Assembly (NCBI GenBank): GCA_965217775.1
Contig: CBDCJH010000002.1
Coordinates: 384,001-448,000 of the forward strand
DNA: 64,000 nt
Direction: 5' to 3'
Origin: Acidobacteriota bacterium
Lineage (GTDB): Bacteria; Acidobacteriota; UBA6911; RPQK01; JAJDTT01
The notes beneath the pieces are model-generated. The model did not search any database. It had not been told where the DNA came from and saw only the letters and a list, made by a program, of their open reading frames with translations. This document shows positions 2,483-64,000 of this stretch, one piece after another. Each line of letters begins with the position of its first letter. The first letter of the stretch is position 1. Made by a program: the position numbers and the translations under genes.

Positions 2483-2760
2483 GGCGTTTGCCCGGGTCGT
2501 CCGCCGTGGCGTCGCGCGGCCCGCACCGCGCGGATCTCGGCATCGACGCTCTGCTCGGAGCGGGTCACCGGTGCGTCGCGCAGGCGGTCGAGCACCGCCA
2601 GCAGACGAAGCCTTTCCCGTTCGCTGAGCCGATCCTTCCGGGCGGCGTAGTCGGCGACTGCTTCCCGGACGACATGGCTCTGCGCCATCCCGAGAAGGTC
2701 CGCCATCCGACGGATCTGCCGCACCGTCGCCTCGTGGAGAGAGTAAGTGACCTTTACCAT
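2479..2760 (-). CDS. Ribbon-helix-helix-type antitoxin
   Basis: 93 aa, MVKVTYSLHEATVRQIRRMA...QSHVVREAV RHH pattern, translationally coupled to the PIN toxin. Confidence 0.75.
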   Translation of the reverse strand: MVKVTYSLHEATVRQIRRMADLLGMAQSHVVREAVADYAARKDRLSERERLRLLAVLDRLRDAPVTRSEQSVDAEIRAVRAARRHGGRPGQTP

Positions 2761-2840
2761 ACTGATGCAATACTACCATAATAGCTGACCGGCTTCCCGC
2801 ATTCCGGCGGAGCACGACCAGGATATGCCTCCAACTTCGC

Positions 2841-5800
2841 TCAGATCCCCAGCAACCATCCTTCCGCCGGCTGTCCCATGATCTGTTTCAGTCCGTACAC
2901 ATACCACTGCACCTGGCGCAGGTAACCGGGATCGTCCGGTTTGAGGTGGACGTCGGTCTTGAAGTCCACCACGACCCAGCGGCCGTCCTCCAGATAGGCG
3001 AGATCGATCGTCCCCTCCAGCAGTTGGCCTTCCGCAACGGTGAGGAGAAATGGGAGCTCCCGGTGGCGCCTTGGGGCGGCTCGTGCCCGTTCCAGCAACG
3101 AATGGTCCAGGGCAGAGCGCACGGCCTGGATGGCGAACCTGCGCTCCGGGTTGGTCACGCCCAGGACCCTGCCATGGAGCCGCGCAAGCCTTCGGATCTC
3201 CGGCTCGTCGGCGTCCAGGTGGACGTCCCGCAACAGGGTGTGGACCAGGGTCCCGAACCTGGGTCCCGAGGGCCGGGAGTCGGGAATCGGATGAGTCTCC
3301 AGCCCCACGGAGGGACGCTCGGGAGGGTCACCCGGCGAGGGTTCCCCGGTGACCGTCAACACTTGCAGTGTTGGCCGGGACCCGGACTGAAGCGCCAGCC
3401 GTCGTCCTTCCCGCCACTGCCGGTAGCGGGCGAGGCCCTCTTGTCCGGCCCGGCCCCGTTCGTCGTCGGCCAGGATCCGTTCCCGCTGCAGGCCGAAGTT
3501 GGGACGAACCGTCAGGTCCAGCAACTCGGGGTCCCACCAGACCAGGGGATGATCCCCCGTCTGCGGTCGGTGGAGGCCGGGGCGGATGCAGGGCTGGATT
3601 CGGCCCTTGGGGTTCTGGAGCAGACTGCGAGGCCCGAAGCTGGGGCATCCTGGAGCCGGTTGTCCGCGGCTCCAGGCCGTCCGGGCCGGATAGATGGCCT
3701 GCTCCAGGGGAGCCAACCATTCCAGCTTCGATCTCGGCCTGGGGCCCACTCCCAGCCCGGGGACCACCAGCAGATCCCGGGCTCGCGTCGCCGCCACGTA
3801 GGCGAGGCGGACCCCCTCCGCCCGGTCCCGTGCCGCCTCGACGTCCTGATGGTCCAACAATTCCCAGGGGACGCATCCCATGAGGCTGAATGCCGCCAGG
3901 TTGCGGCTCGAATCGACGAATTTGTCGGGACGGAAGGAGGAGAGGTGGGCCGTCGTGTCGGCCAGGATCACCACGGGAAACTCCAACCCCTTGGCGTTAT
4001 GGACGGTCATCAGATGGACCCCGTCGACCCCTTCTTCCGACACCTGGGCCCCGGCCCCGGTCCGCCGCCGGGCCAGTCTCTCCAGATGCTCCACGAAGCC
4101 CCGGAACGAGCCTCCTCCGCCGGTCTCGAAAGCCCGGGCCAGATCGCAGACCCGTTGCAGGTTGGCCAGTACCTGGCGTCCGGCCGGGCGCAGGGCGAAT
4201 CCCGCATGAGCTCGAGTTTGAGCCAGGAGCCGGGAAAGGGTTTCGGCGACGGGGCGCCGGTTGCGCCGTCGATGCAGAAGGGCCAGGATCTCCAGCGCCT
4301 CGGCCACCGGCTTCAGGTCGTCATGCAGATCTTCGGGACGAGGACGGAACGGATGGAGTGAACCGTATCGGTCCCTGAAGCGCAGCAACAGCGAATCCCG
4401 GATCCAGAAGAGGGAGCCGCGGAGCGTCGCGTAGACCGAGAGTTCGTCGTCTGGCCGTTCGAGAGCGCTCAGGGCCACCCGCAGGGTCTCGACTTCTTCC
4501 CGCTGATGGAAGGATCGGGAGCCCATCAGGACGTGGGGCACCCCCCGGATCTCGAGTCCCCTGGCGTATTCACGCGTGACGTCCCGTCTCCAACTGACGA
4601 AGCGCCGGAACAGGATGCAGACGTGGCCGGGGGAAATGGGGATGCGCCGGGTGGGGTCCTCGGGGTCGCCCACCTGCCAGCCGCTTTCTCGCAACAGCCA
4701 GTCCGTGAAGGCGGCGACGGTCTGGGGGAGGCTCTGCTCGATGGCCGCGTTGGCCAGGTTCCCCCATTTGCTGTAGGGCTCCGGCACCGGAAGGGCGATG
4801 AGCGCCGGCTGGTCCGGTGCGGCCGTTCGGTGGCTCTCGAGGGGAACGTAGTCCGGTTGTCCGCTGACGGGGTCGGCCTTCATCTCCGGCGCGAAGGCCG
4901 CGTTGACGGCCAGTTGCAGAGGCCGCACGGAGCGGAAGTTTCGCTTCAGGTGGACCACTTTCACCCCGGCGGCCTCGAGGATCTCCTTGATCTCCTGGTA
5001 CAGGACCACGTCGGCGCGGCGGAACCGATAGATCGACTGCTTGGGATCTCCCACCAGAAAGAGCTTTCCGGGAGCGGGCCGGACCCTGCGCCAGTCCGTC
5101 TCCTGCGCGTCATCCGCCGACAGAAGCAGTAATATCTCCGCCTGCAGGGCGTCCGTGTCCTGGAACTCGTCGACGAAGATGTGGCTGAAGTGTTCCTGGA
5201 AATCCCGCCGGACGGACGGACGGTCCCGAATCAGGTTGCGAGTCTTGATCAGCAGGTCCATGAAGTCGAGTCGGCTGGTCTGTTCCTTGAGTGCCTCGTA
5301 GAACGGGGCCACCTCCAGCAGTTCCTCCCGGAGCAGAGCGGCCAGATCGGCGTCGGCGCATCGTATGAAATCCTCCAGTTCCCGGAGCAGATCTTCCCGC
5401 GCCCGGACCACCACCACCCGGGGCAGTCCCGGACCGTATTCTCCGGTCCGGCTCGGCCGGAAGAAGGGGGACCTCAACCGGCGCTTCAGACGGAGCAGTC
5501 GCCCTTCGAGGCGATCGTAGTCGCGGGGCCGTTCCAGTTCGAAGCGCCGGACCCAGGCGTCCAGATCCCGGACCGGACCCAGTTCCTGCCGCAGCCGATC
5601 CCGCCGGTTGGCCGCCCGATCGCTGGTGGCTGCCAATTCCCGGATCCGGCTGATCAGGTCGTCCAAAAGCGCTTCCCGGTCGAAGACCTCCCGTCTCCAG
5701 GAACTCCCGTAGTCGCGCCATTCCATGAGTTTCCAGGCGGCCGAGCGGAGCTGGTCCAGAGGCGAGCCGAAGTCGGCTCCCTGCCCGATCAGGGAGCGCT

Positions 5801-32990: not shown

Positions 32991-34914
32991 AATCGCAAAT
33001 AGTCTAGCATCCTCAGGCTGGAAGCCGCCACGGTATTGGCCCGGACGGATTGCCTACTTTCGACACCGAAAATACCTTGACGGCTGGTGTCGGGGACTAT
33101 ACATCGAACGCCGCTCGTGACCGCATCCCAGTCTCTCTTGGTCGCAAATCCTTAGTTCAACCAGCCACGGAGGCCGAATTTCGAGATGCGTAAGAATGTC
33201 AACTTTTCTTCGATTGGGATCATCCTTCTTCTGCTGAGCTTCACCAGCACCTTCGCCCAAAGGACGACGGCGGAGATCGTGGGCACGGTGACCGATGAAA
33301 CGGGAGGCGTGCTTCCCGGCGTGGAAGTCGTGATCACCAATCTGGACACGGCTCTGACCCGAAGCACCTTCACGAACGATTCCGGAAACTACCACGTCCG
33401 CCTCTTGCCGGTCGGCCGCTATTCCGTCAGCGGCGAGCTGGTGGGGTTCAAGAAGCAGGAAATCTCGGGAATCATCCTCCAGGTGGACCAGGTGGCTCGT
33501 ATCGATCTGAGCTTGGAGGTCGGAGAGATCACGGAGCTGGTGGAGATGGAAGGCACGGCGCCCCTGACCAAGACCGACGACGCCGACATCGGGATGGTGA
33601 TCGAGAACCAGCAGATCGAGGAACTCCCTCTTCGAGGCGAGAACTCCTTCGTCGATCTGGTCTCGCTGGATGCCGGAGCCGCCAAGGTTTCCGGCCATTT
33701 GACGTCGATCTTCACCGATCTGTTCGGAGGCATGACGAACGCCTACGGCTCCCCCCCGGACGGGTCGAGGTTCATGATCGACGGCGTGGACGTGAAGGAC
33801 ACCGCCTATCCCGGATCGATATCCGTCTGAGCGGCAACGCCACCCGGGAGATGAAGTCGCAGATGAACTCCCATTCGGCGGAGTTCGGAATGAACAGCGG
33901 CATCCAGGTCAACATGGTGACCAAGTCCGGGACCAATGAAATTCACGGAAACGTCTTCTGGGACCATCGCAACTCGTCGGCGAACGCACGGAATTTCTTC
34001 GATCCGTCCCGGGAAAGCCGGGTCCGGGAGGGTCTGTCCGAAGTTCCCATCCTTCAATTCAACATCTTCGGCGCCTCGGTCGGGGGACCCATCGTCCAAG
34101 ACCAGACCTTTTTCTTCTTCAACTACCAGGGCACGCGGGAAAACAAGTCGCTCACTCGTCCGGCCAGCGTTCCCACCATGAAGATGAGAAACGGCGACTT
34201 CTCCGAGATACTTCCCGGAACGGTGATCAAGGATCCGTTGACCGGCCAGCCCTTCCCGGGCAACATCATCCCCGAGAACCGGATCCATCCGGTGGCCCGC
34301 AACATGATGTTCGGCGTGGGTGAGGTCAATCCGCTGTGGCCCGTGCCCGATCGTCCCGGAATCGCCAACAACATCCTGCCCAGCCGTGTCCAGGAGCAGG
34401 TCTTCGACCAGTACGTCTTCCGCGTGGACCACAGCCTCACGGACTCGGACAACATCTGTGTCCGATACATTTACGACAAACAGGACCGGGTCCTGCGCTA
34501 CAACAAGTTCCTTCACCAACTCCCCGACTACAACGACATTTTCTCCACGCCCGCCCACAATGCTCGAGTCGGTTGGACCAAGGTCATGGGGGCGACGGCG
34601 GTCAATGAACTGAAACTGGGCGTCAACCGCATGACGCAGACGCTGGAAGATGAGATTTACGGCACGCCGGTTCCGAAGCTCCTGGGAATCGAGGGGACGT
34701 CGACCCTGTTTCAATACAATCCCTGGGTGAACGTGGCTGGTTTCAGCCGGACCGGCACCCTCTTGAACGCTCCCAACAACCGTGTGGACAACACCTATCT
34801 CGCCGGAGATACGATCTCGTGGAACGTGGGTTCTCATGCCCTCGGATTCGGAGGCGAGTGGAGGGAGAGAGAGCAGAACGGGGGATCCCAGCCGATACCC
34901 AACGGTTATTTTAT

Positions 34915-35015
34915 GGGGCTTATATACCTAAGTGCCCTTGGCATACAGTTCTGGCACCACGCTTTCCCCAACGAGATACGTTCCGGTACCCAGGGCAAGA
35001 ACCCCAGCCCTGAGA
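34915..35015 (-). ncRNA. Candidate omega-RNA scaffold overlapping the tnpB 3' end and the TIR
   Basis: Minus-strand stems CAGGGC/GCCCTG, GGTACC/GGTGCC enclosing ACG..CGT, and TGTATGCC-AAG-GGCA-CTT-A-GGTATATA. Position is typical of omega-RNAs. Boundaries are inferred. Confidence 0.5.
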
Positions 35016-36103
35016 ATGTTCAGGGCGGCATTGTGGTCCCTGTCCATTCCAAGTCCGCAGGCCCTGCACCGGAAGGTTTCGCTCCGCCCTGGATCGTGGC
35101 GGGCGCCGCACCGGTGGCAGTCCTGCGATGTAAATGCGGGATTCACTTCTACGAACTTCCGACCGGCCCATTCTGCCTTGTACTGGATTTGATTCCGCAG
35201 AAGCCCCCAGGATTGCGTCAGTATTTCTCGATTCAGCCCCTTCTTCTTCGAGCCCTTCGTTACCATCCCTTGGATGTTCAGCTTCTCCACAGCGATCAGA
35301 CCGTGCTCACGAATGATCCTGCTGGAGAGACGATGGCAGGCATTACGGTTTCGGACCGATTCCCGGTGACGGAGCCGAGATAGCTGTACGATCCGCTTCC
35401 GTCTGGTCTTGGAAATCTTCTTGCACCTGGAGACCTTTCTCTGCTGCTTTCGGATCTCCCCCCAGTCCCGTCGATTCCGTTCGATCCTCTCACCCGTGGA
35501 CAGCACCGCTCGCTTGCGGACGCCCAGGTCGATCCCTACCGAAGACTCGCATTTCGGTAGCGGCGGCTTCTCCACCTCGTACGTCAGGTCCACATACACC
35601 CGGTTCGGCTTGCGGACAATCCGCAACGCTTTCAACGGGCATCCGTCCGGCAACGGCCGGGACGGAAATATCCGGATCGTCGGGAAGCCCTTGGGCCGGA
35701 TGGCGTAGCCCCGAGCGCGCTTCTTCACCAGGGTCGCTTTGGGGTCGACGACGTCGATGGTCTCCATCCTCGCCAGGGGCCGGAATCGAGGATACCCCGG
35801 CTTCTCCCCCGCCTTGCAGCGACGGAAAAACGCCTTGAAGGCCCGGTCCAACCGCATCAACATCCCACGCTCCGCCTTGACCGCCACCGACCCGAGCCCC
35901 TCCGGATCGTCCTTCCTCTGGGAGGTCAACCCCTTCATCTGATCGTACAGGGTCACGCCGCGTTGCTCGGATTCCCAGGCCGTCCTGCGTTCCTCCAGTG
36001 CAGCGTTGTACAGCCGATTCAGGATGGACCTCACCCCGTCCAACCGCCGGATTCCACCCTTGGACAGCTTGGCTCGGCACTGGATAGTTGCGTGGCCTTT
36101 CAT
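34928..36103 (-). CDS. tnpB: RNA-guided endonuclease TnpB
   Basis: LYNAALEER, KPGYPRFR, RuvC-I GIDLG, RuvC-II IAVEKL, Zn finger CHRCG/CRACG and RuvC-III DRDHNAALNI. Confidence 0.92.
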   Translation of the reverse strand: MKGHATIQCRAKLSKGGIRRLDGVRSILNRLYNAALEERRTAWESEQRGVTLYDQMKGLTSQRKDDPEGLGSVAVKAERGMLMRLDRAFKAFFRRCKAGEKPGYPRFRPLARMETIDVVDPKATLVKKRARGYAIRPKGFPTIRIFPSRPLPDGCPLKALRIVRKPNRVYVDLTYEVEKPPLPKCESSVGIDLGVRKRAVLSTGERIERNRRDWGEIRKQQRKVSRCKKISKTRRKRIVQLSRLRHRESVRNRNACHRLSSRIIREHGLIAVEKLNIQGMVTKGSKKKGLNREILTQSWGLLRNQIQYKAEWAGRKFVEVNPAFTSQDCHRCGARHDPGRSETFRCRACGLGMDRDHNAALNILRAGVLALGTGTYLVGESVVPELYAKGT

Positions 36104-36110
36104 GGTCGGA

Positions 36111-36116
36111 ATTGTA
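36111..36116 (-). promoter_or_regulatory. Candidate -10 box for a leaderless tnpB transcript
   Basis: TACAAT 7 nt upstream of the tnpB ATG, with no Shine-Dalgarno sequence. Confidence 0.45.
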
Positions 36117-37821
36117 ACCCATCAGCCTGAATTCTCGGCACTTACGTATATAATCCCCTATTTTATCTTCGCCCCCGTCTACACCGGTTATGCCATGGCG
36201 GATCTGATGCTGGGCTATCACCGGACGGCCATCACGGGCCGGGAAGACGGTTTCGGAAACTACAGCCACAACAACGTCAGTATCCACTTCAAGGACACCT
36301 GGAAGGTCAGCTCCAAGGTGACTCTGGACCTGGGCCTGCGCTGGGACTACTTCTCACCCTATACCGATTCGAGAGATCGGATCTCGCAGTTCGATCCGGG
36401 TTCGGGATTGCTGATTCTGGTGGGTGATCCGCGCCCGACCGACGCTTCCCACTATGCATTGCCGGCGGAATACGGCGTTGCCGAGCGCATGCTCTCTCCG
36501 TTGATCTCGGACGCGAGCTGGCCTCATGGAAGGCTGCTTCAGGCGCGCGACCTGAACGACTGGGCTCCGAGAGTCGGTCTGGCTTTTCGTCCCTTCGGCG
36601 GAAACGAGACGGTTGTTCGGGCGAGCTACACCCCTTTCGACACCTTCTACATGCAGCGGGTCGGTTTCAACAAGCCCTTCGTGAACCAGCAGACCTTCGT
36701 GAATCAGTTGGACGAGCAAGGTGTTCCCGTGTTCACCATCGACAGGCCGTTTCCTGAGGGCTCGGGTATTCCTTCGTCGACGGGGTAGGGATTTCAGCCG
36801 GATTGGGCCCACGGTTACAACCAACAGTACAACGTCACCGTGGAAAGAGCCCTGTCTCAAACCGCCGTCTTCGAGCTCGGTTACATCGGCAACAAAGGCA
36901 CCAAACTGATCCGCGACGGGAACCTGAACCTGGCGGCTCCCGGTCCCGGCAGCCGCGTGAATCGAAGGCCCTATCAGAATTGGGCGACCGTCGGCTGGAG
37001 ACAGCCCACTGCCAACTCCTCCTATCACGGGATGAGAGTCAATCTGAAGCAGGGATTCAGCAACGGTTTCCTGGGCAACATTTCCTACGTCTATTCCAAG
37101 TGGCTCGACTGTGGTGGAAACAACCTGTTCGCCGACCTGGGGGACAGCGTGAAGAGGAATCCCTTCGACTGTGCGGCGGAAAAAGGGCGCAGCGCTTCCG
37201 ATTACCGGCAGCGGTTCGTCTACAATTTCGTCTACCAGATTCCGGTCATGCGAGGATCCGGCCACGGACTTGCGGGAGCCATCCTGGGTGAATGGAACAT
37301 CAGCAGCATCGGGACCTTCTCTTCGTCCGGGGCGGTCGACGTCGGCAGTCCATTCGATCCCGACAACACGGGAGCGGCCAATCGGCCTGATCTCACCGGG
37401 AATCCGAACAGTGGGCCCCGAAACGCCCAGCAGTGGTTCAATACCAAGGCGTTCACGCGGGTTCCGAATCCGGCGGAAACGGGCGTCTACCGTTTTGGAA
37501 ACGCCGGCCGCAACATCATCGACGGTCCCGGCTGGACCACGGTCGACTTTTCGGTCTGGAAGTCCTGGCACGCGGCGCAGGAAGCAGTACGGATCGAGTT
37601 TCGAGTCGATTTCTTCAACATCACCAATCACACGAACTTCGATCTCCCCAATCGTAATTTCGGAACGGGAGCCTTTGGAACGATGGGCAACGCCGGGAAT
37701 TCGCGGCATCTTCAATTCGGCCTGAATGTCCAGTTCTAGAGATGTCGTCTCAGGCCCGGAAAGAAAACCTGTCGGCAAGTCCGTCTCGAATGGTCTCGAA
37801 TAAGAAGGAGAAGTTGAAGAT

Positions 37822-60328: not shown

Positions 60329-61418
60329 CGCCGGTCGGATCGGAACCGGTATCCATTCGTATTCGAATCAGTCGGGAATGACCGGCAGGACCACATGAGA
60401 CGGGTAGCGGTCATCGTGATAGATGGTCTGGGTCGCGACCTTCATCTCCGCACTCTTGCCCAATGGATTGCCGGTGTTCAAATTCCTGGCGAAACGTGGG
60501 AAGTTGCTGCTGGAAACCTCCAGCCGGATGCGGCTTCCCGGCTGAAACTCCCAACTCGTCTCCCAGATCTCGATTGGAATCTCGTAGACCCTTCCGGGTT
60601 CGATCAAGGTCGGATTTTCCAACGATTCCCGGAAGCTGGCCCGGCGGATCCCCTCACTGATGTGAATTGCCGTTCCATCCGCCAACACCTCGGTCAAGAC
60701 GGCAGTGAAATCGGTGTCGACCGCGCTGGAAGCGGCATAGAGCTTCAACTCGATGGGGCCCGTGACCTCCAGCTTTTGGGTCAAGGGCTCACTGGTATAG
60801 ATCAGGACGTCGTCCCGCTTCTGGACGGGCCGGCGGTCCTGAGGCCCTCTCTGGTCGGGAGGAAACTCGGTCTGTCCTCCCACGGTGGGGACGGGGTTGG
60901 CGGGATCGTATTGGAAGCTGTCTTGAGGAGCACCGTCAGGCGGGGGTGACGTTCCCAGGGTGCCGTCGCCAGGGACGGAGTTGGCGGCTCCGCCGCTATT
61001 CAGGTAGTACTTGGTCCACCGGGTGCGGGCCAGGGGCCATTCGTGCTCGTCACGCCACTTGTTGGCGCGCATCACGAACAGCCGGATGGGGGCCTCCTGG
61101 TCGATGCCGTTGGGGATGCCCTTGAGCCAATAGTCATACCATCGGACGTGCAACTCCTCGACGTCGAGAAGGGAGGATTCCCCAAAGTCGATCACCCAGT
61201 TGTCGTAGGTCTGATTGTAGGAATGGGACCAGGGTCCGACCAGGATCTTGGTCTGCTTCCGGGCCAACTCGGATCCCCCTTCCTCTCGAAAGCCGATGAA
61301 CTGCCGCCAGATCTCATGTTCCAGGTTGTCGTACCAACCGGTCAGGAAGTAGGCGGGGACCTGGATCTGGTCGTACTTTCCCTTGGGGATTATATACGAA
61401 AGTGCCGAAACCTGAGCA

Positions 61419-61601
61419 TTAACGCCGGTTCCGTGGCCGGTCTATCCATCTGATATTCACGGGCTGGACCAATGCACGGGCCAGCTCCTCGAAGTCTGCT
61501 TCCACGCGCATATCCGGTTCCAGTTCGGCCTTGGTCGGTTGGTAGGAATCCTTGACCAGTTCGATGGTGGGATGTTGGGGATTGTGTCTGGGTTTCTTCA
61601 T
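61419..61601 (-). CDS. Small hypothetical passenger protein (60 aa)
   Basis: ATGA overlap with the upstream stop; ends 8 bp inside the TIR boundary. Confidence 0.5.
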   Translation of the reverse strand: MKKPRHNPQHPTIELVKDSYQPTKAELEPDMRVEADFEELARALVQPVNIRWIDRPRNRR

Positions 61602-62103
61602 GCGGCCCTCGGCATCCTAGGTTGTTTCCCCTCAAAGTAGTCTTCCGCCGTGTAGATTTGAATCTTGGGCAGGTCCATGAAGCGTCCGGCGTTGACGGCG
61701 GCATTTCTCATGCCGTTGGTCACTCGGTCTCGAAAGCAGGTGAAGATGCCGAGATCAGCTCCGGCCTGTCGACGTGCGCCGTTGAAGGCTTGGACGTGTC
61801 CGGGATTGGTAGAGCCGCCTTTGACCTGAGAAACGATGTCAATGAACCGGCCCTTGCGGATCGGGAGCCGTCCCACGCCGTCAATTCCGCCATCCCGTCT
61901 CTGGATTCGGTTCGGCTCCGTACCCTCCACCAGAGCAGCAGCCCACCTCTCAAACCGGAATTTATCGATGCTGGCAAGCTCCTGAGCGTGTGTGATGGTA
62001 TGGGGAAGGCCAATGTCTTGGGTGTGTTCCCAACGGATTCATCCGGGACATCCTCCCGCATGACTTCAAGGTGGTCTCCAAAGCTCAGTCGATTTTCGTT
62101 CAA
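61598..62103 (-). pseudogene. Internally deleted DNA methyltransferase/Mrr-like nuclease passenger
   Basis: MNENRLSFGDHLEVMREDVPDESV (MTase-like start) joined out of frame to ...DKFRFERWA...DGGIDG...SQVKGG (Mrr-like). Confidence 0.65.
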
Positions 62104-63050
62104 CCCACCAAATCCTTGTAACGCAGCCGCTTTCCCACCATCCGGTCAGCGACCAGGGCCATTTGATCCAACGTGTCCATGCGCCTTAGGTTGTGACGTG
62201 CGGCAAACTCTCCAACGTATCGGTCGGTGTGCTGTTCCGAGAAGTGGTGAAAGGTTCCGTGGTAACTCCGCTTCAACATCGACCAGAACGATTCGGCTCC
62301 GTTGGTGTGGCAGTTGCCTTTGACGTACTCCTGAAGAGAATGCTTGACCGTCTCGTGATTGACAAGCCGGCCGTAAGAGGTTGAATCGTCGGTGTAGATC
62401 TTGGCATCTTCTCCCACGTGCTCCAAGACGAAACGGGAGAGGGTTTCAGACTTGGTGTCAGGGACGACTCGGGCCGACACTTGGTTGGAGGGGCGATCTT
62501 TGACGGCAGCCACGGCCGTCTTTCCAACGGCTCCACGTCCCTCCAGTTTGGCGCGTTTGGCCTTCGGCATATTCTTCCGCTTTCCGCCGAGATACGCCTC
62601 GTCAGCCTCGACCGGGCCGGAGAACAGGGCCATTCCAGTCAGGTTCAGACCTTTCCGTATCCGGTGAGCAAGGTGCCAAGCCGTCTTCTGTGTTACGTCC
62701 AGGTCACGATGCAGCTTCATGGAGGAAACGCTCTTGAGGCTGGTAGTAAGGAGGTAGGTCGCAAGCAACCAAGTCTGATAGCCGAGTTTGGAGGACTGCA
62801 TAACCGTCCCGACCCGGACGCTGAACCGCTTGCCGCAATCGCGGCAACGATACGGCATGGAAGGATGCTTGGCTCCGGTCTGGACGTTGGTGGAGCCGCA
62901 ATGGACGCAACAGACTTCCTCCGGCCACCGCCGCTTTATGAACCATTCCTCAGCGGCTTTATCGTCGGGAAATCTCTTGAAGAATCCGCGCAGTGAAAGT
63001 CCCTCTCGGAACGCCTTTCCGGGTGCCTTGTTCCGTGTCTCGTAACTCAT
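62100..63050 (-). CDS. IS1595-family DDE transposase
   Basis: Zn ribbon CVHC...CRDC, VEADEAYLGG, IYTDD, HTNGAESFWS and YVGEF. Confidence 0.92.
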   Translation of the reverse strand: MSYETRNKAPGKAFREGLSLRGFFKRFPDDKAAEEWFIKRRWPEEVCCVHCGSTNVQTGAKHPSMPYRCRDCGKRFSVRVGTVMQSSKLGYQTWLLATYLLTTSLKSVSSMKLHRDLDVTQKTAWHLAHRIRKGLNLTGMALFSGPVEADEAYLGGKRKNMPKAKRAKLEGRGAVGKTAVAAVKDRPSNQVSARVVPDTKSETLSRFVLEHVGEDAKIYTDDSTSYGRLVNHETVKHSLQEYVKGNCHTNGAESFWSMLKRSYHGTFHHFSEQHTDRYVGEFAARHNLRRMDTLDQMALVADRMVGKRLRYKDLVG

Positions 63051-63075
63051 TGCAGCCTCCTGACTTACAAGACAT

Positions 63076-63104
63076 ATTCTATAGGAAAGTACCGGGATTG
63101 TCAA
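63076..63104 (-). promoter_or_regulatory. Sigma70 promoter for the IS1595 transposase
   Basis: TTGACA-17 bp-TAGAAT, followed by an AGGAGG RBS before the ATG at 63050. Confidence 0.7.
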
Positions 63105-64000
63105 CCCCTACGGGAAACCTTTTCGGCACTTTCGTATATAATCCCCTTTCCCTTGGTTCCGTAGGACTTCCAGTAGTCGTCGTAGGTGGGGTGATCCAAC
63201 AGCGTCTTGACCCAGGGACGGTCCACCATCTCATCCAGGGCGGTGTAAAGGGGGAGCCGCGAGAAGATCTCGTTCCAGTCCATCAGGGGATGGTCGAAAA
63301 TGCCGGGCCAGAAGGCCATGCCCCGGTTGACCCAGAGGAACTCGGCCACGAAGATCACGTTCAATTGGGGGATGCCGTCGTTGTAGAGGTGACCGAAGTT
63401 GGTCTCCTGATTGGCGCTCGGCATCAGGGCTTTCAGGTTGGGATGCTGGTAACGGGCCGGCATCACCTGTGTGAAGCCGTCGTAGGAATGCCCGAAGGTC
63501 CCGATCTTCCCGTTGCACCAGTCCTGCTCGGCCAGCCACTTCTGAGTGTCGAATCCGTCCTGCGGGTCATTGACGTAGGGGTGCCAGACCCCCTCGGAGT
63601 CGTGACGGCCGCGGAGATCCACCGTGACCGCGGCATAGCCCCTTTCGGCGAAATAGACCGCCCGGCTCACCACGTCGGGACGCATGTTGTTGTAGGCGGT
63701 CATCAACATCAAAGTGGGGAACGGGCCGGGTGCATCCGGCCGGTAGATGTCAGCCGAAAGATGGACTCCATCCCGCATCGGCACCTTGGCGTCGAGCGAA
63801 AAAACGACCTTGTGCCCGGGTTGGGAGAGTTCGGCCTGTCCACAGCCGAAGACCGTAAACAGTAGAGAGGAAAACACCATCGTCACTATACTGGATCGCA
63901 GGTTGGTCTTCGCCTCGAACATCAGGCCGTCCTCCTGGAAGTGGACCGGTTTTGCGTTGACTTCGTTCCGGGCGGCATGGAGCCGCCAAAGATGTTGCTC

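What the first reader, a model, noticed from the sequence alone, without database searches (positions are those of the whole stretch)
34907..36166. TnpB packaged inside IS1595-type inverted repeats, with a matching IS1595 transposase about 25 kb away
Seen: the tnpB gene (RuvC D/E/D residues and Zn finger intact) is the only gene in a 1244-bp element. The element has 22-bp TIRs (20/22 identical to each other) and an exact 8-bp TSD (TATTTTAT). The upstream end matches the TIR of the IS1595 element at 61385-63146 at 24/26 positions, and that element also has an 8-bp TSD. Established: TnpB normally travels with IS200/IS605 (Y1) or IS607 (serine) elements, which lack TIRs and make no TSD. Inference: an RNA-guided nuclease has been captured by a non-autonomous IS1595 derivative mobilised in trans by a DDE transposase. 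Occasional TnpB-DDE links may already appear in large surveys, so novelty needs checking.
Basis: partly seen in the sequence, partly recalled or inferred. Interest (0 to 1): 0.92.

Follow-up and report, generated by a model that had tools for sequence, protein, structure and literature searches.

The report
TnpB nuclease riding IS1595-type mini-transposon
A small multi-copy mobile element in a sponge-associated Acidobacteriota genome carries only an RNA-guided TnpB nuclease between the inverted-repeat ends of a different (IS1595, DDE-type) transposon, and its insertion sites bear an oriented sequence mark suggesting that the nuclease helps the element persist.

Summary
Window 34915-36158 is a 1244-bp element with 22-bp inverted ends and an exact 8-bp duplication. 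Its only gene is an intact, ISDra2-like tnpB. It is not a chance copy. The genome holds 12 near-identical copies at different sites. Related subfamilies occur in 6 of 9 genomes of one genus. Four public read sets hold the precise empty site, as do four sister genomes.

A co-resident IS1595 with matching ends (24 of 26) is the likely helper in trans.

I add three things:
- TnpB is under purifying selection (dN/dS 0.12-0.30).
- The 3' end of tnpB plus the inverted repeat forms a conserved, covarying RNA fold that resembles an omega-RNA.
- Insertion sites are asymmetric. G|A lies on the tnpB-upstream side in 21 of 21 clean insertions, and never on the other side alone. The helper IS shows no such rule. 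This fits a TAM imprint from TnpB-mediated retention, which is inferred and not shown.

The general idea, TnpB in DDE transposons with solo copies moved in trans, is already in print (Altae-Tran 2023). IS1595 as the partner is not named in the texts I could search. Verdict: a new member of a known kind, with an interesting target-site signature.

The parts
34907..34914 (.). Target-site duplication, copy next to the tnpB-downstream end (TATTTTAT)
   Evidence: Public contigs hold a single copy of it in the empty allele (joint 34906->36159, 8 letters fit both sides).
34915..34936 (.). Terminal inverted repeat at the tnpB 3' side ('RE'). It contains the tnpB stop codon.
   Evidence: Copy boundaries.
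34928..36103 (-). tnpB, 391 aa, RuvC D192/E273/D354-D356 and zinc-finger cysteines present
   Evidence: dN/dS 0.12-0.30.
34953..35012 (-). Two adjacent conserved hairpins (34991-35012 and 34953-34990) inside the 3' end of tnpB; proposed omega-RNA scaffold core
   Evidence: There are 22 pairs, 98.8% of cells are paired, and 9 pairs carry compensatory changes. 0 of 500 shuffles reach this. Slid controls give 32-45% paired.
34921..34947 (-). Third hairpin, whose 3' arm is the inner part of the inverted repeat. It is followed by the tail AAGCCCC (34915-34921), which could pair with the GGGGUU loop of hairpin 1.
   Evidence: MFE folds give a TIR-containing terminal hairpin in all 9 sequences folded, from 6 subfamilies. 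Partial consensus with one compensatory pair. The pseudoknot-like pairing of the tail is inferred.
34895..34914 (-). Proposed guide segment of a read-through RNA (duplication plus flank beyond the 3' end)
   Evidence: Inferred from TnpB biology. The only support is that an RNA-library contig of another copy runs 29 nt past this end (X9 record 26). That contig may be DNA or a host transcript.
36137..36158 (.). Terminal inverted repeat at the tnpB 5' side ('LE'). With its next 4 bases (36133-36158) it matches the co-resident IS1595 end at 24 of 26.
36159..36166 (.). Target-site duplication, copy next to the tnpB-upstream end
36167..36167 (-). G immediately before the duplication in tnpB orientation; proposed last TAM position
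   Evidence: G at this position in 26 of 28 unique upstream junctions. G|A in 21 of 21 elements with a clean duplication.
33851..36788 (+). TonB-dependent-receptor-like outer-membrane barrel gene split by the insertion
   Evidence: Pfam OMP_b-brl_4 profile positions 1-314 lie left of the element and 324-503 right of it. The reading frame is continuous in the empty allele.
61385..63146 (.). Autonomous IS1595-family element (1762 bp) with 26-bp inverted repeats and the 8-bp duplication TTTCCCTT (61377-84, 63147-54)
62100..63053 (-). IS1595 (ISXO2-like) DDE transposase, the proposed helper in trans
   Evidence: Pfam DDE_Tnp_IS1595 1.6e-38. Zn_ribbon_IS1595 2.5e-05 (24.6 bits, just under Pfam's 25.4-bit cut-off). 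There are 4 identical copies in this genome and 8 copies at 98-99% in G260.

Best explanation
The element is a non-autonomous member of an IS1595-family transposon lineage. It consists of two IS1595-type inverted repeats around a single cargo, an active TnpB with its own omega-RNA.

Shown:
- It is multi-copy and inserts with 8-bp duplications.
- It is polymorphic (present or absent) in natural populations.
- It has diversified into subfamilies whose repeats differ, while TnpB stays under purifying selection.
- A covarying RNA fold spans the tnpB 3' end and the repeat.

Inferred:
1. The co-resident IS1595 DDE transposase moves it in trans.
2. Transcription runs through the 3' repeat into the flank. 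This gives each copy a guide that matches its own insertion site.
3. When a copy is lost and the site is resealed on one duplication copy, TnpB cuts the empty site. Recognition uses a TAM that ends in the G just before the duplication (G|AWW). Recombination with a sister copy then restores the element.
4. Over time only insertions with that motif on the tnpB-upstream side survive. This produces the oriented site bias.
For: Copies and duplications.
- The own genome holds 12 subfamily-A copies at 94-100% nt identity, 10 of them with a whole 391-aa ORF.
- Of 27 elements with both ends found across genomes of the genus, 18 have an 8 of 8 duplication, 3 have 7 of 8, and 6 have 6 of 8 or fewer.

Empty sites.
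- A joint that skips exactly 1252 bp, with 8 shared letters, is present in 4 of 4 runs laid. In X1 it coexists with an occupied junction contig.
- The orthologous site is empty in 4 of 4 sister genomes examined.

Helper.
- The IS1595 carries 24 of 26 matching ends. In this genome it has 4 intact copies plus 1 broken copy.
- None of 16 tnpB loci in G000 lies within 5 kb of an IS1595 transposase gene (coordinates).

TnpB function.
- Catalytic and zinc-finger residues are invariant in 9 subfamily representatives, apart from the first cysteine of the second pair, which is kept in 8 of 9.
- dN/dS is 0.30 within subfamily A and 0.12-0.30 between subfamilies.

RNA.
- 22 pairs, with 9 compensatory. 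0 of 500 shuffles reach this.
- A repeat-containing third hairpin appears in all 9 sequences folded, from 6 subfamilies.

Site bias.
- G|A lies on the upstream side in 21 of 21 clean insertions.
- 16 insertions carry it only upstream and 0 carry it only downstream (binomial 3e-5).
- In the autonomous IS it lies on one side in 5 of 16, on the other side in 4 of 16, and on neither in 8 of 16.
- The motif sits on the side where TnpB biology places a TAM relative to a guide read out of the 3' end.
Against: - No transposition, RNA end or cleavage was measured.
- The RNA data are assembled contigs. They cannot show strand, ends or abundance.
- Only position -1 (G) is strict upstream of the duplication. 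The other conserved positions (A, W, W) lie inside the duplication. A classical 4-5-nt TAM directly followed by the guide therefore fits imperfectly.
- The motif resembles the repeat terminus itself (GGGG|ATTATATA), so part of it is a transposase preference.
- The IS comparison rests on 16 copies. For 4 of them I corrected a one-base offset by eye, and 8 rows were dropped for lacking clear repeats or a duplication: L095, L096, both L109 rows, L108, L110, L111 and L112.
- G148 has 5 elements but only a transposase gene with a stop codon, so those copies currently have no visible helper.
Confidence: 0.7

Rival explanations
1. TnpB is a passive hitch-hiker. An IS1595 derivative captured the gene by accident. 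The protein and RNA do nothing for the element, and the site bias comes from the transposase alone.
For: Half of the autonomous IS insertions (8 of 16) also carry G|A at one end, so the transposase has some preference of this kind. The motif resembles the repeat terminus.
Against: dN/dS is 0.12-0.30 over a divergence where dS reaches about 1. 10 of 12 ORFs in this genome are intact. The RNA fold covaries. The orientation bias is 16 to 0, although left and right repeats do not differ consistently between subfamilies. The same transposase gives no orientation bias for its own IS.
Confidence: 0.12
2. TnpB takes part in transposition itself. For example, an RNA that contains the repeat sequence could guide cuts at the element's own ends or at the target, helping the DDE enzyme to excise or to choose sites.
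For: The 3' repeat is part of the conserved RNA, and by symmetry it is complementary to the other end. G|A is present in all clean insertions, as if it were needed at insertion.
Against: In studied systems TnpB is dispensable for transposition (stated in the review PMC13565253, passage read). The autonomous IS moves without it. No spacer-like variable segment lies inside the element.
Confidence: 0.1
3. The element is an ordinary IS200/IS605-type (IS1341-like) solo tnpB that a Y1 or serine TnpA moves. The repeats and duplications are incidental.
For: The protein is closest to ISDra2 TnpB. Databases name relatives as IS200/IS605 accessory proteins.
Against: 8-bp duplications occur at 21 of 27 elements. 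The repeats are shared with a DDE IS. The Y1_Tnp family gives only 3 weak hits in the genome, none near tnpB. There are 55 nt and 0 nt of non-coding sequence at the two ends, which leaves no room for subterminal hairpin ends.
Confidence: 0.03
4. The TnpB has been domesticated as a nuclease-dead regulator (TldR-like) or serves a host function.
For: None specific.
Against: Catalytic residues are invariant. The gene is multi-copy, mobile and polymorphic, and here it disrupts a host gene.
Confidence: 0.02

Closest known systems
DDE-transposase-associated TnpB branches (DDE-1 to DDE-6) and solo TnpBs with the same ends (Altae-Tran et al. 2023, PNAS, PMC10691335; section 9 and passages read)
   Same: TnpB lies inside inverted terminal repeats of a DDE transposon. 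The TnpB 3' end is close to the transposon end (within 250 bp there; here the stop codon lies inside the repeat). Solo copies are presumed to be moved in trans.
   Different: The partner family here is IS1595 (ISXO2-like). 'IS1595' has 0 occurrences in that main text. A 2026 review sums up its DDE partners as ISL2, IS630 and IS1031 (PMC13565253). TnpB was never found in cis with the transposase in the genomes searched.
ISDra2 / IS200-IS605 TnpB-omegaRNA (OMEGA) system
   Same: Full-length sequence similarity (E 3.5e-32). Same catalytic layout. A structured RNA overlaps the 3' end of tnpB. A motif lies next to the upstream end, where a TAM would be.
   Different: There is no Y1 TnpA and there are no subterminal hairpin ends. 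The element has inverted repeats and 8-bp duplications. The element terminus is dictated by a DDE transposase.
Fanzor1 and Fanzor2* in eukaryotic TIR/TSD transposons (Bao & Jurka 2013, PMC3627910, search listing only; Yoon et al. 2023, PMC10711439, passages read)
   Same: A TnpB-family nuclease is the cargo of cut-and-paste transposons, often non-autonomous. The inverted repeat is predicted to be part of the guide-RNA scaffold.
   Different: This case is prokaryotic and the TnpB is short and canonical. The duplication is 8 bp and variable, so it cannot be a fixed scaffold part. From recall, IS1595 is the bacterial relative of the eukaryotic Merlin superfamily. No paper in the library links Fanzor to Merlin in a relevant way.
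IS1595 family and mobile insertion cassettes (recalled: Siguier, Gagnevin & Chandler 2009; MICs of Chen et al. and De Palmenaer et al.; none of these read here)
   Same: 8-bp duplications, GG-starting inverted repeats, members that carry passenger genes, and cassettes with IS ends but no transposase.
   Different: The passenger is an RNA-guided nuclease whose RNA uses the repeat.
IS1341-type solo tnpB elements
   Same: tnpB is the only gene and the element is multi-copy.
   Different: Those keep IS605-type ends and make no duplication (review PMC13565253, passage read).

Membership tests
TnpB (OMEGA RNA-guided nuclease) | OrfB_IS605 RuvC domain plus C-terminal zinc-ribbon/TNB domain | tested here: met
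   Pfam PF01385 at 6.2e-18 and PF07282 at 2.8e-25, both over the cut-off
TnpB (OMEGA RNA-guided nuclease) | RuvC D-E-D catalytic residues | tested here: met
   They align to ISDra2 TnpB. D192, E273 and D354/D356 are invariant in 9 subfamily representatives.
TnpB (OMEGA RNA-guided nuclease) | Structured omega-RNA that overlaps the 3' end of the gene and ends at the element terminus | tested here: inconclusive
   A conserved, covarying fold was found. No Rfam match. RNA ends and expression were not measurable from contigs.
TnpB (OMEGA RNA-guided nuclease) | RNA-guided, TAM-dependent DNA cleavage | not testable with these tools
   Needs a TAM-library or interference assay. The oriented G|AWW site bias is indirect.
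IS200/IS605 or IS607 element | Y1 or serine TnpA partner; asymmetric ends with hairpins; no inverted repeats and no duplication | tested here: not met
   Repeats match 20 of 22 and an 8-bp duplication is present. PF01797 gives only 3 weak hits, none near tnpB. Serine recombinases were not searched for.
IS1595 family (as a non-autonomous derivative) | Terminal inverted repeats shared with an element that encodes a DDE_Tnp_IS1595 transposase | tested here: met
   24 of 26 identity to the ends of 61385-63146. Transposase Pfam match 1.6e-38.
IS1595 family (as a non-autonomous derivative) | 8-bp target-site duplication | tested here: met
   18 elements at 8 of 8 and 3 at 7 of 8, out of 27. 16 autonomous copies also have 8-bp duplications (with 4 offsets corrected by eye). 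That 8 bp is the family norm is recalled.
IS1595 family (as a non-autonomous derivative) | Own transposase gene | tested here: not met
   tnpB is the only ORF with a family match, so the element is non-autonomous
IS1595 family (as a non-autonomous derivative) | Mobilisation by the IS1595 transposase | not testable with these tools
   Needs a transposition assay
DDE-associated TnpB branches of Altae-Tran 2023 | Phylogenetic placement in one of DDE-1 to DDE-6 | not testable with these tools

The most novel reading that the evidence does not exclude
This is a natural prokaryotic counterpart of Fanzor-in-DDE-transposon systems. An IS1595 (Merlin-related) cut-and-paste lineage has taken a TnpB into a helper-dependent mini-element. 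The transposase-binding repeat has been built into the omega-RNA. The TAM has evolved to match the transposase's favoured half-site. The 21 of 21 oriented G|AWW sites would then be the first genomic footprint showing that TnpB-mediated retention (homing) decides which insertions of a DDE transposon survive.
Probability: 0.4. Interest if true: 0.75.

Novelty: new member of a known kind. Interest (0 to 1): 0.55.

Why it matters
TnpB is thought to pay its way by restoring scarlessly excised IS605 and IS607 copies. Why it so rarely joins the far commonest DDE transposons in prokaryotes is an open point (discussed in the review PMC13565253).

This lineage gives a compact, multi-copy, recently active test case:
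- It has a known helper.
- It has a 1.2-kb cargo element.
- Occupied and empty alleles occur in the same samples.
- It carries a candidate TAM that can be read directly from the insertion sites.

It would allow direct tests of three questions. Does TnpB retention work with a duplication-making transposase? How can an inverted repeat serve as both transposase site and guide-RNA scaffold? Does this mirror the route that led to Fanzors?

Tried and rejected
Searches that gave nothing or were closed:
- Rfam search of 34700-36400 gave only COG3860 at E 0.73, below its threshold.
- The JGI metagenome scan with the subfamily alignment gave one weak partial hit, L124, with 42% identity over 76 residues. 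It added no further context.
- A phylum sample of 401 genomes had nothing closer than 37% identity outside the genus. I therefore could not see the ends of the 45-62% relatives listed. Whether they carry repeats or IS605 ends stays open.
- The consensus promoter scan found no sigma-70-like site on the tnpB strand.

Data I do not rely on:
- Depth in the RNA library X9 is higher over 34972-35055 than over the rest of tnpB (90.7 against 13.6). These are contig depths summed over many copies, and the tool warns against ranking by them, so I do not count this as expression evidence.
- My first alignment of sister-genome sites used the wrong end of reversed loci. It was redone.
- RNAalifold on the last 50 nt recovered only the outer 5 pairs of hairpin 3, because of indels.

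Ideas rejected:
- A -35 or -10 explanation for the upstream G. The G would fall in a spacer.
- A left/right repeat asymmetry as the cause of the orientation bias. It is not consistent between subfamilies.


Full report
**1. The observation**

- The element spans 34915-36158 and is 1244 bp long.
- Its ends are GGGGCTTATATACCTAAGTGCC and, as reverse complement, GGGGATTATATACGTAAGTGCC. They match at 20 of 22 positions.
- TATTTTAT flanks it on both sides, at 34907-14 and 36159-66.
- The only substantial ORF is 34928-36103 on the minus strand, 391 aa. It matches Pfam OrfB_IS605 and Cas12f1-like_TNB.
- The ORF aligns end to end with the solved ISDra2 TnpB (8bf8, E 3.5e-32), with the RuvC acidic residues and both CxxC pairs in place.
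- The ATG lies 55 nt from one terminus, and the TAG stop lies inside the other inverted repeat. There is no room for nested IS605 or IS607 ends.
- The tnpB-upstream end matches the end of the element at 61385-63146 at 24 of 26 positions.
- That second element has perfect 26-bp repeats and the 8-bp duplication TTTCCCTT. It encodes a DDE_Tnp_IS1595 (ISXO2-like) transposase (1.6e-38) with a near-threshold match to the IS1595 zinc ribbon.

**2. It is a real, mobile, multi-copy element**

The window lies in a 6.43-Mb, two-contig assembly. Records of close relatives are titled Acidobacteriota MAGs.

Copies in this genome.
- BLAST of the element finds 18 places.
- Twelve of these are copies of the same subfamily at 94-100% nt identity, and the alignments stop at the repeat ends. 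One of the twelve is split by an insertion.
- Ten of the 12 keep a whole 391-aa ORF.
- Each copy sits at a different site. The flanking 8-mers match 8 of 8 in 10 copies, 7 of 8 in 1 copy and not at all in 1 copy, at C2:1186780.

All genomes reached. Of 27 elements with both ends detectable, 18 have a perfect duplication, 3 have 7 of 8, and 6 have 6 of 8 or fewer.

Control. The same repeat-finding routine was run on 17 unrelated TnpB loci of 26-35% identity. In 16 of them the best repeat was only 15-19 of 24, with no duplication.

**3. Empty sites**

Contigs from four public runs were laid on 34300-36800. The runs came from four studies, and one is an RNA library. All four contain a joint from 34906 to 36159 that skips 1252 bp, with 8 letters shared by both sides. 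That is the uninterrupted site with one copy of TATTTTAT.

In run X1 this joint (depth 21.8) coexists with a contig across the occupied left junction (depth 44.4).

Four sister genomes of the genus (G260, G437, G148, G436) have left and right flanks contiguous at the orthologous place.

The interrupted gene is a TonB-dependent-receptor-like barrel. Its Pfam profile positions continue across the gap, 1-314 on one side and 324-503 on the other.

**4. Lineage**

Within the class, which is represented by 137 species genomes, close relatives (E <= 1e-50) occur in 6 genomes. All 6 are in the window's genus: the own genome plus 5 of 8 others.

A phylum sample of 401 genomes has nothing above 37% identity outside the genus.

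Within the genus there are at least five or six subfamilies at 69-87% aa identity.
- All are 1228-1255 bp long.
- All begin with GGGG(A/C)TTATA.
- The inner repeat sequences differ per subfamily.
- IS1595-type elements in these genomes carry a similar variety of inner repeat sequences.

No tnpB locus in G000 or G260 lies within 5 kb of an IS1595 transposase gene (coordinates).

G148 has five elements, but its only IS1595 transposase gene carries a stop codon.

The wider protein database shows a continuum of further relatives at 45-62% identity. Some are labelled Bryobacterales or Acidobacteriia TnpB. I could not fetch their DNA context.

**5. TnpB is maintained**

- D192, E273, D354/D356, C329/C332 and C349 are invariant in nine subfamily representatives. 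The first cysteine of the second pair is kept in 8 of 9.
- Nei-Gojobori dN/dS is 0.30 among 12 subfamily-A ORFs, with means of 15.9 synonymous and 14.4 non-synonymous differences.
- Between subfamilies dN/dS is 0.12-0.30, at dS up to about 1.4.

**6. RNA**

I aligned the last 230 nt of 11 elements on the tnpB strand. The alignment gives two adjacent hairpins at window 34991-35012 and 34953-34990.
- They comprise 22 pairs, and 98.8% of cells are paired.
- 9 pairs carry compensatory changes.
- None of 500 column shuffles reaches any of the five measures.
- Sliding the 3' partners drops pairing to 32-45%.

Single-sequence folds of nine sequences from six subfamilies all add a third hairpin. Its 3' arm is the inner half of the inverted repeat, and its sequence differs by subfamily. 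The consensus fold recovers only its outer pairs, one of them compensatory.

In the subfamily-A fold the final AAGCCCC pairs with the conserved GGGGUU loop of hairpin 1. This may be a pseudoknot-like contact of the kind described for TnpB guide RNAs (Yoon et al. 2023, passages read), but it is inferred.

No Rfam family matches.

**7. An oriented target-site signature**

Read in tnpB orientation, the base before the upstream duplication copy is G in 26 of 28 unique junctions. Within the upstream copy of the duplication:
- Position 1 is A in 24 of 28 junctions. In the downstream copy it is A in 32 of 34.
- Position 2 is A or T in 28 of 28.
- Position 7 is T in 22 of 28.

The mirror positions on the other side are not conserved. 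C follows the duplication in only 12 of 34 junctions.

| Set | n | G\|A on one side | Mirror on the other side | Neither |
|---|---|---|---|---|
| TnpB elements with a clean duplication | 21 | 21 (tnpB-upstream side) | 5 (downstream side, always together with upstream) | 0 |
| Autonomous IS1595 copies | 16 | 5 | 4 | 8 |

Among the 21 TnpB elements, 16 carry the motif only upstream and 0 carry it only downstream (binomial p 3e-5).

For the 16 IS copies I corrected four boundaries by one base by eye. I dropped eight rows that lacked clear repeats or a duplication.

The transposase therefore likes AT-rich 8-mers and has a mild liking for G|A. The strict, oriented rule belongs to the TnpB-carrying elements.

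Left and right repeats do not differ consistently between subfamilies. The asymmetry is best tied to the cargo.

The motif is on the side where a TAM must lie if the guide is read out of the 3' end into the flank. In the empty site the order is TAM, then the duplication, then the right flank. At the occupied 3' junction the corresponding base is the C of ...CCCC, so a copy would not cut itself.

**8. Mechanism, with status**

Shown:
- The anatomy of the element.
- Copy number and duplications.
- Presence/absence polymorphism.
- Selection on TnpB.
- The RNA fold.
- The site bias.

Inferred:
- Trans-mobilisation by the IS1595 transposase (likelihood about 0.85).
- An active TnpB-RNA complex that uses the flank as its guide (about 0.7).
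- Retention or homing as the cause of the site bias (about 0.5).

The retention idea can explain why all surviving copies obey the rule. The TnpB copies differ by 1-5%, so they are older than the 98.7-100% identical IS copies. This leaves time for unprotected insertions to be lost.

Weak points:
- Only one strict base lies upstream of the duplication.
- The motif resembles the repeat terminus.

**9. What is known**

Altae-Tran et al. 2023 (PMC10691335; section 9 read in full, other passages read) report the following:
- Six DDE-associated TnpB branches.
- TnpB 3' ends within 250 bp of the transposon end.
- Solo TnpBs surrounded by near-identical ends and presumably moved in trans.

The concept is therefore not new. 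In that main text only IS630 is named, and 'IS1595' occurs 0 times.

A 2026 review lists the DDE partners as ISL2, IS630 and IS1031, and discusses why DDE links are rare in prokaryotes (PMC13565253, passages read).

Full-text searches gave this:
- 'TnpB' with 'IS1595': 9 papers, none linking the two in title or abstract.
- 'TnpB' with 'ISXO2': 0 papers.
- 'Fanzor', 'Merlin' and 'IS1016', any two of the three: nothing relevant.

I therefore rate this as a new member of a known kind. The oriented insertion-site signature and the repeat-in-RNA architecture are the parts a specialist would find new.

Noticed in passing
L033 (Bathyarchaeia MAG contig CAZYOZ010000041.1), around its TnpB match at 2501-3166: A distant TnpB (31% identity) sits in a 1286-bp unit with 21 of 24 inverted repeats of a different sequence (GGTTCTGTCAACTTGCCGGCGGAT) and a perfect 8-bp duplication AGAAGAAA. 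This may be an independent TnpB-in-TIR element in an archaeon.
   Followed up: no
window 61385-62100 (minus strand ORFs 61598-61930, 61720-62103, 61419-61601): The autonomous IS1595 carries about 715 bp of passenger sequence downstream of its transposase. It includes a 110-aa ORF that matches NA-iREase1/Mrr_cat restriction-endonuclease-like domains (1.4e-07) and overlaps a 127-aa ORF in another frame. The length is constant (1762-1764 bp) in all 11 copies measured.
   Followed up: partly
G000:C2:1186780-1188023 (locus L005): One otherwise intact copy has unrelated flanking 8-mers (AATGGATT and AAACATAT). This is what recombination between two copies would give. No reciprocal partner was seen.
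   Followed up: no
window 36625: All four public runs carry 12 extra bases (CTACGGCATTTT) after 36625 relative to the window. The receptor gene also changes frame near 33830-33851 and 36788-36840. These may be assembly errors or a decaying gene.
   Followed up: no
G148 (handles L039, L051, L058, L062, L118; L088/L140): This sister genome has five TnpB elements. Four have 386-aa ORFs and duplications matching 8 of 8 (3 elements) or 7 of 8 (1). Its single IS1595 transposase gene contains a TAA stop, so these elements look stranded.
   Followed up: partly
G000:C2:4647309-4648714 (loci L012/L015): One subfamily-A copy carries an insertion of about 160 bp inside tnpB but keeps its repeats and the duplication ATTGCTTG.
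   Followed up: no
one search run list: The stretch is held by runs of 9 studies. They include four metatranscriptome libraries labelled sponge metagenome, which suggests a sponge-associated lineage. Only X1, X3, X8 and X9 were laid.
   Followed up: partly
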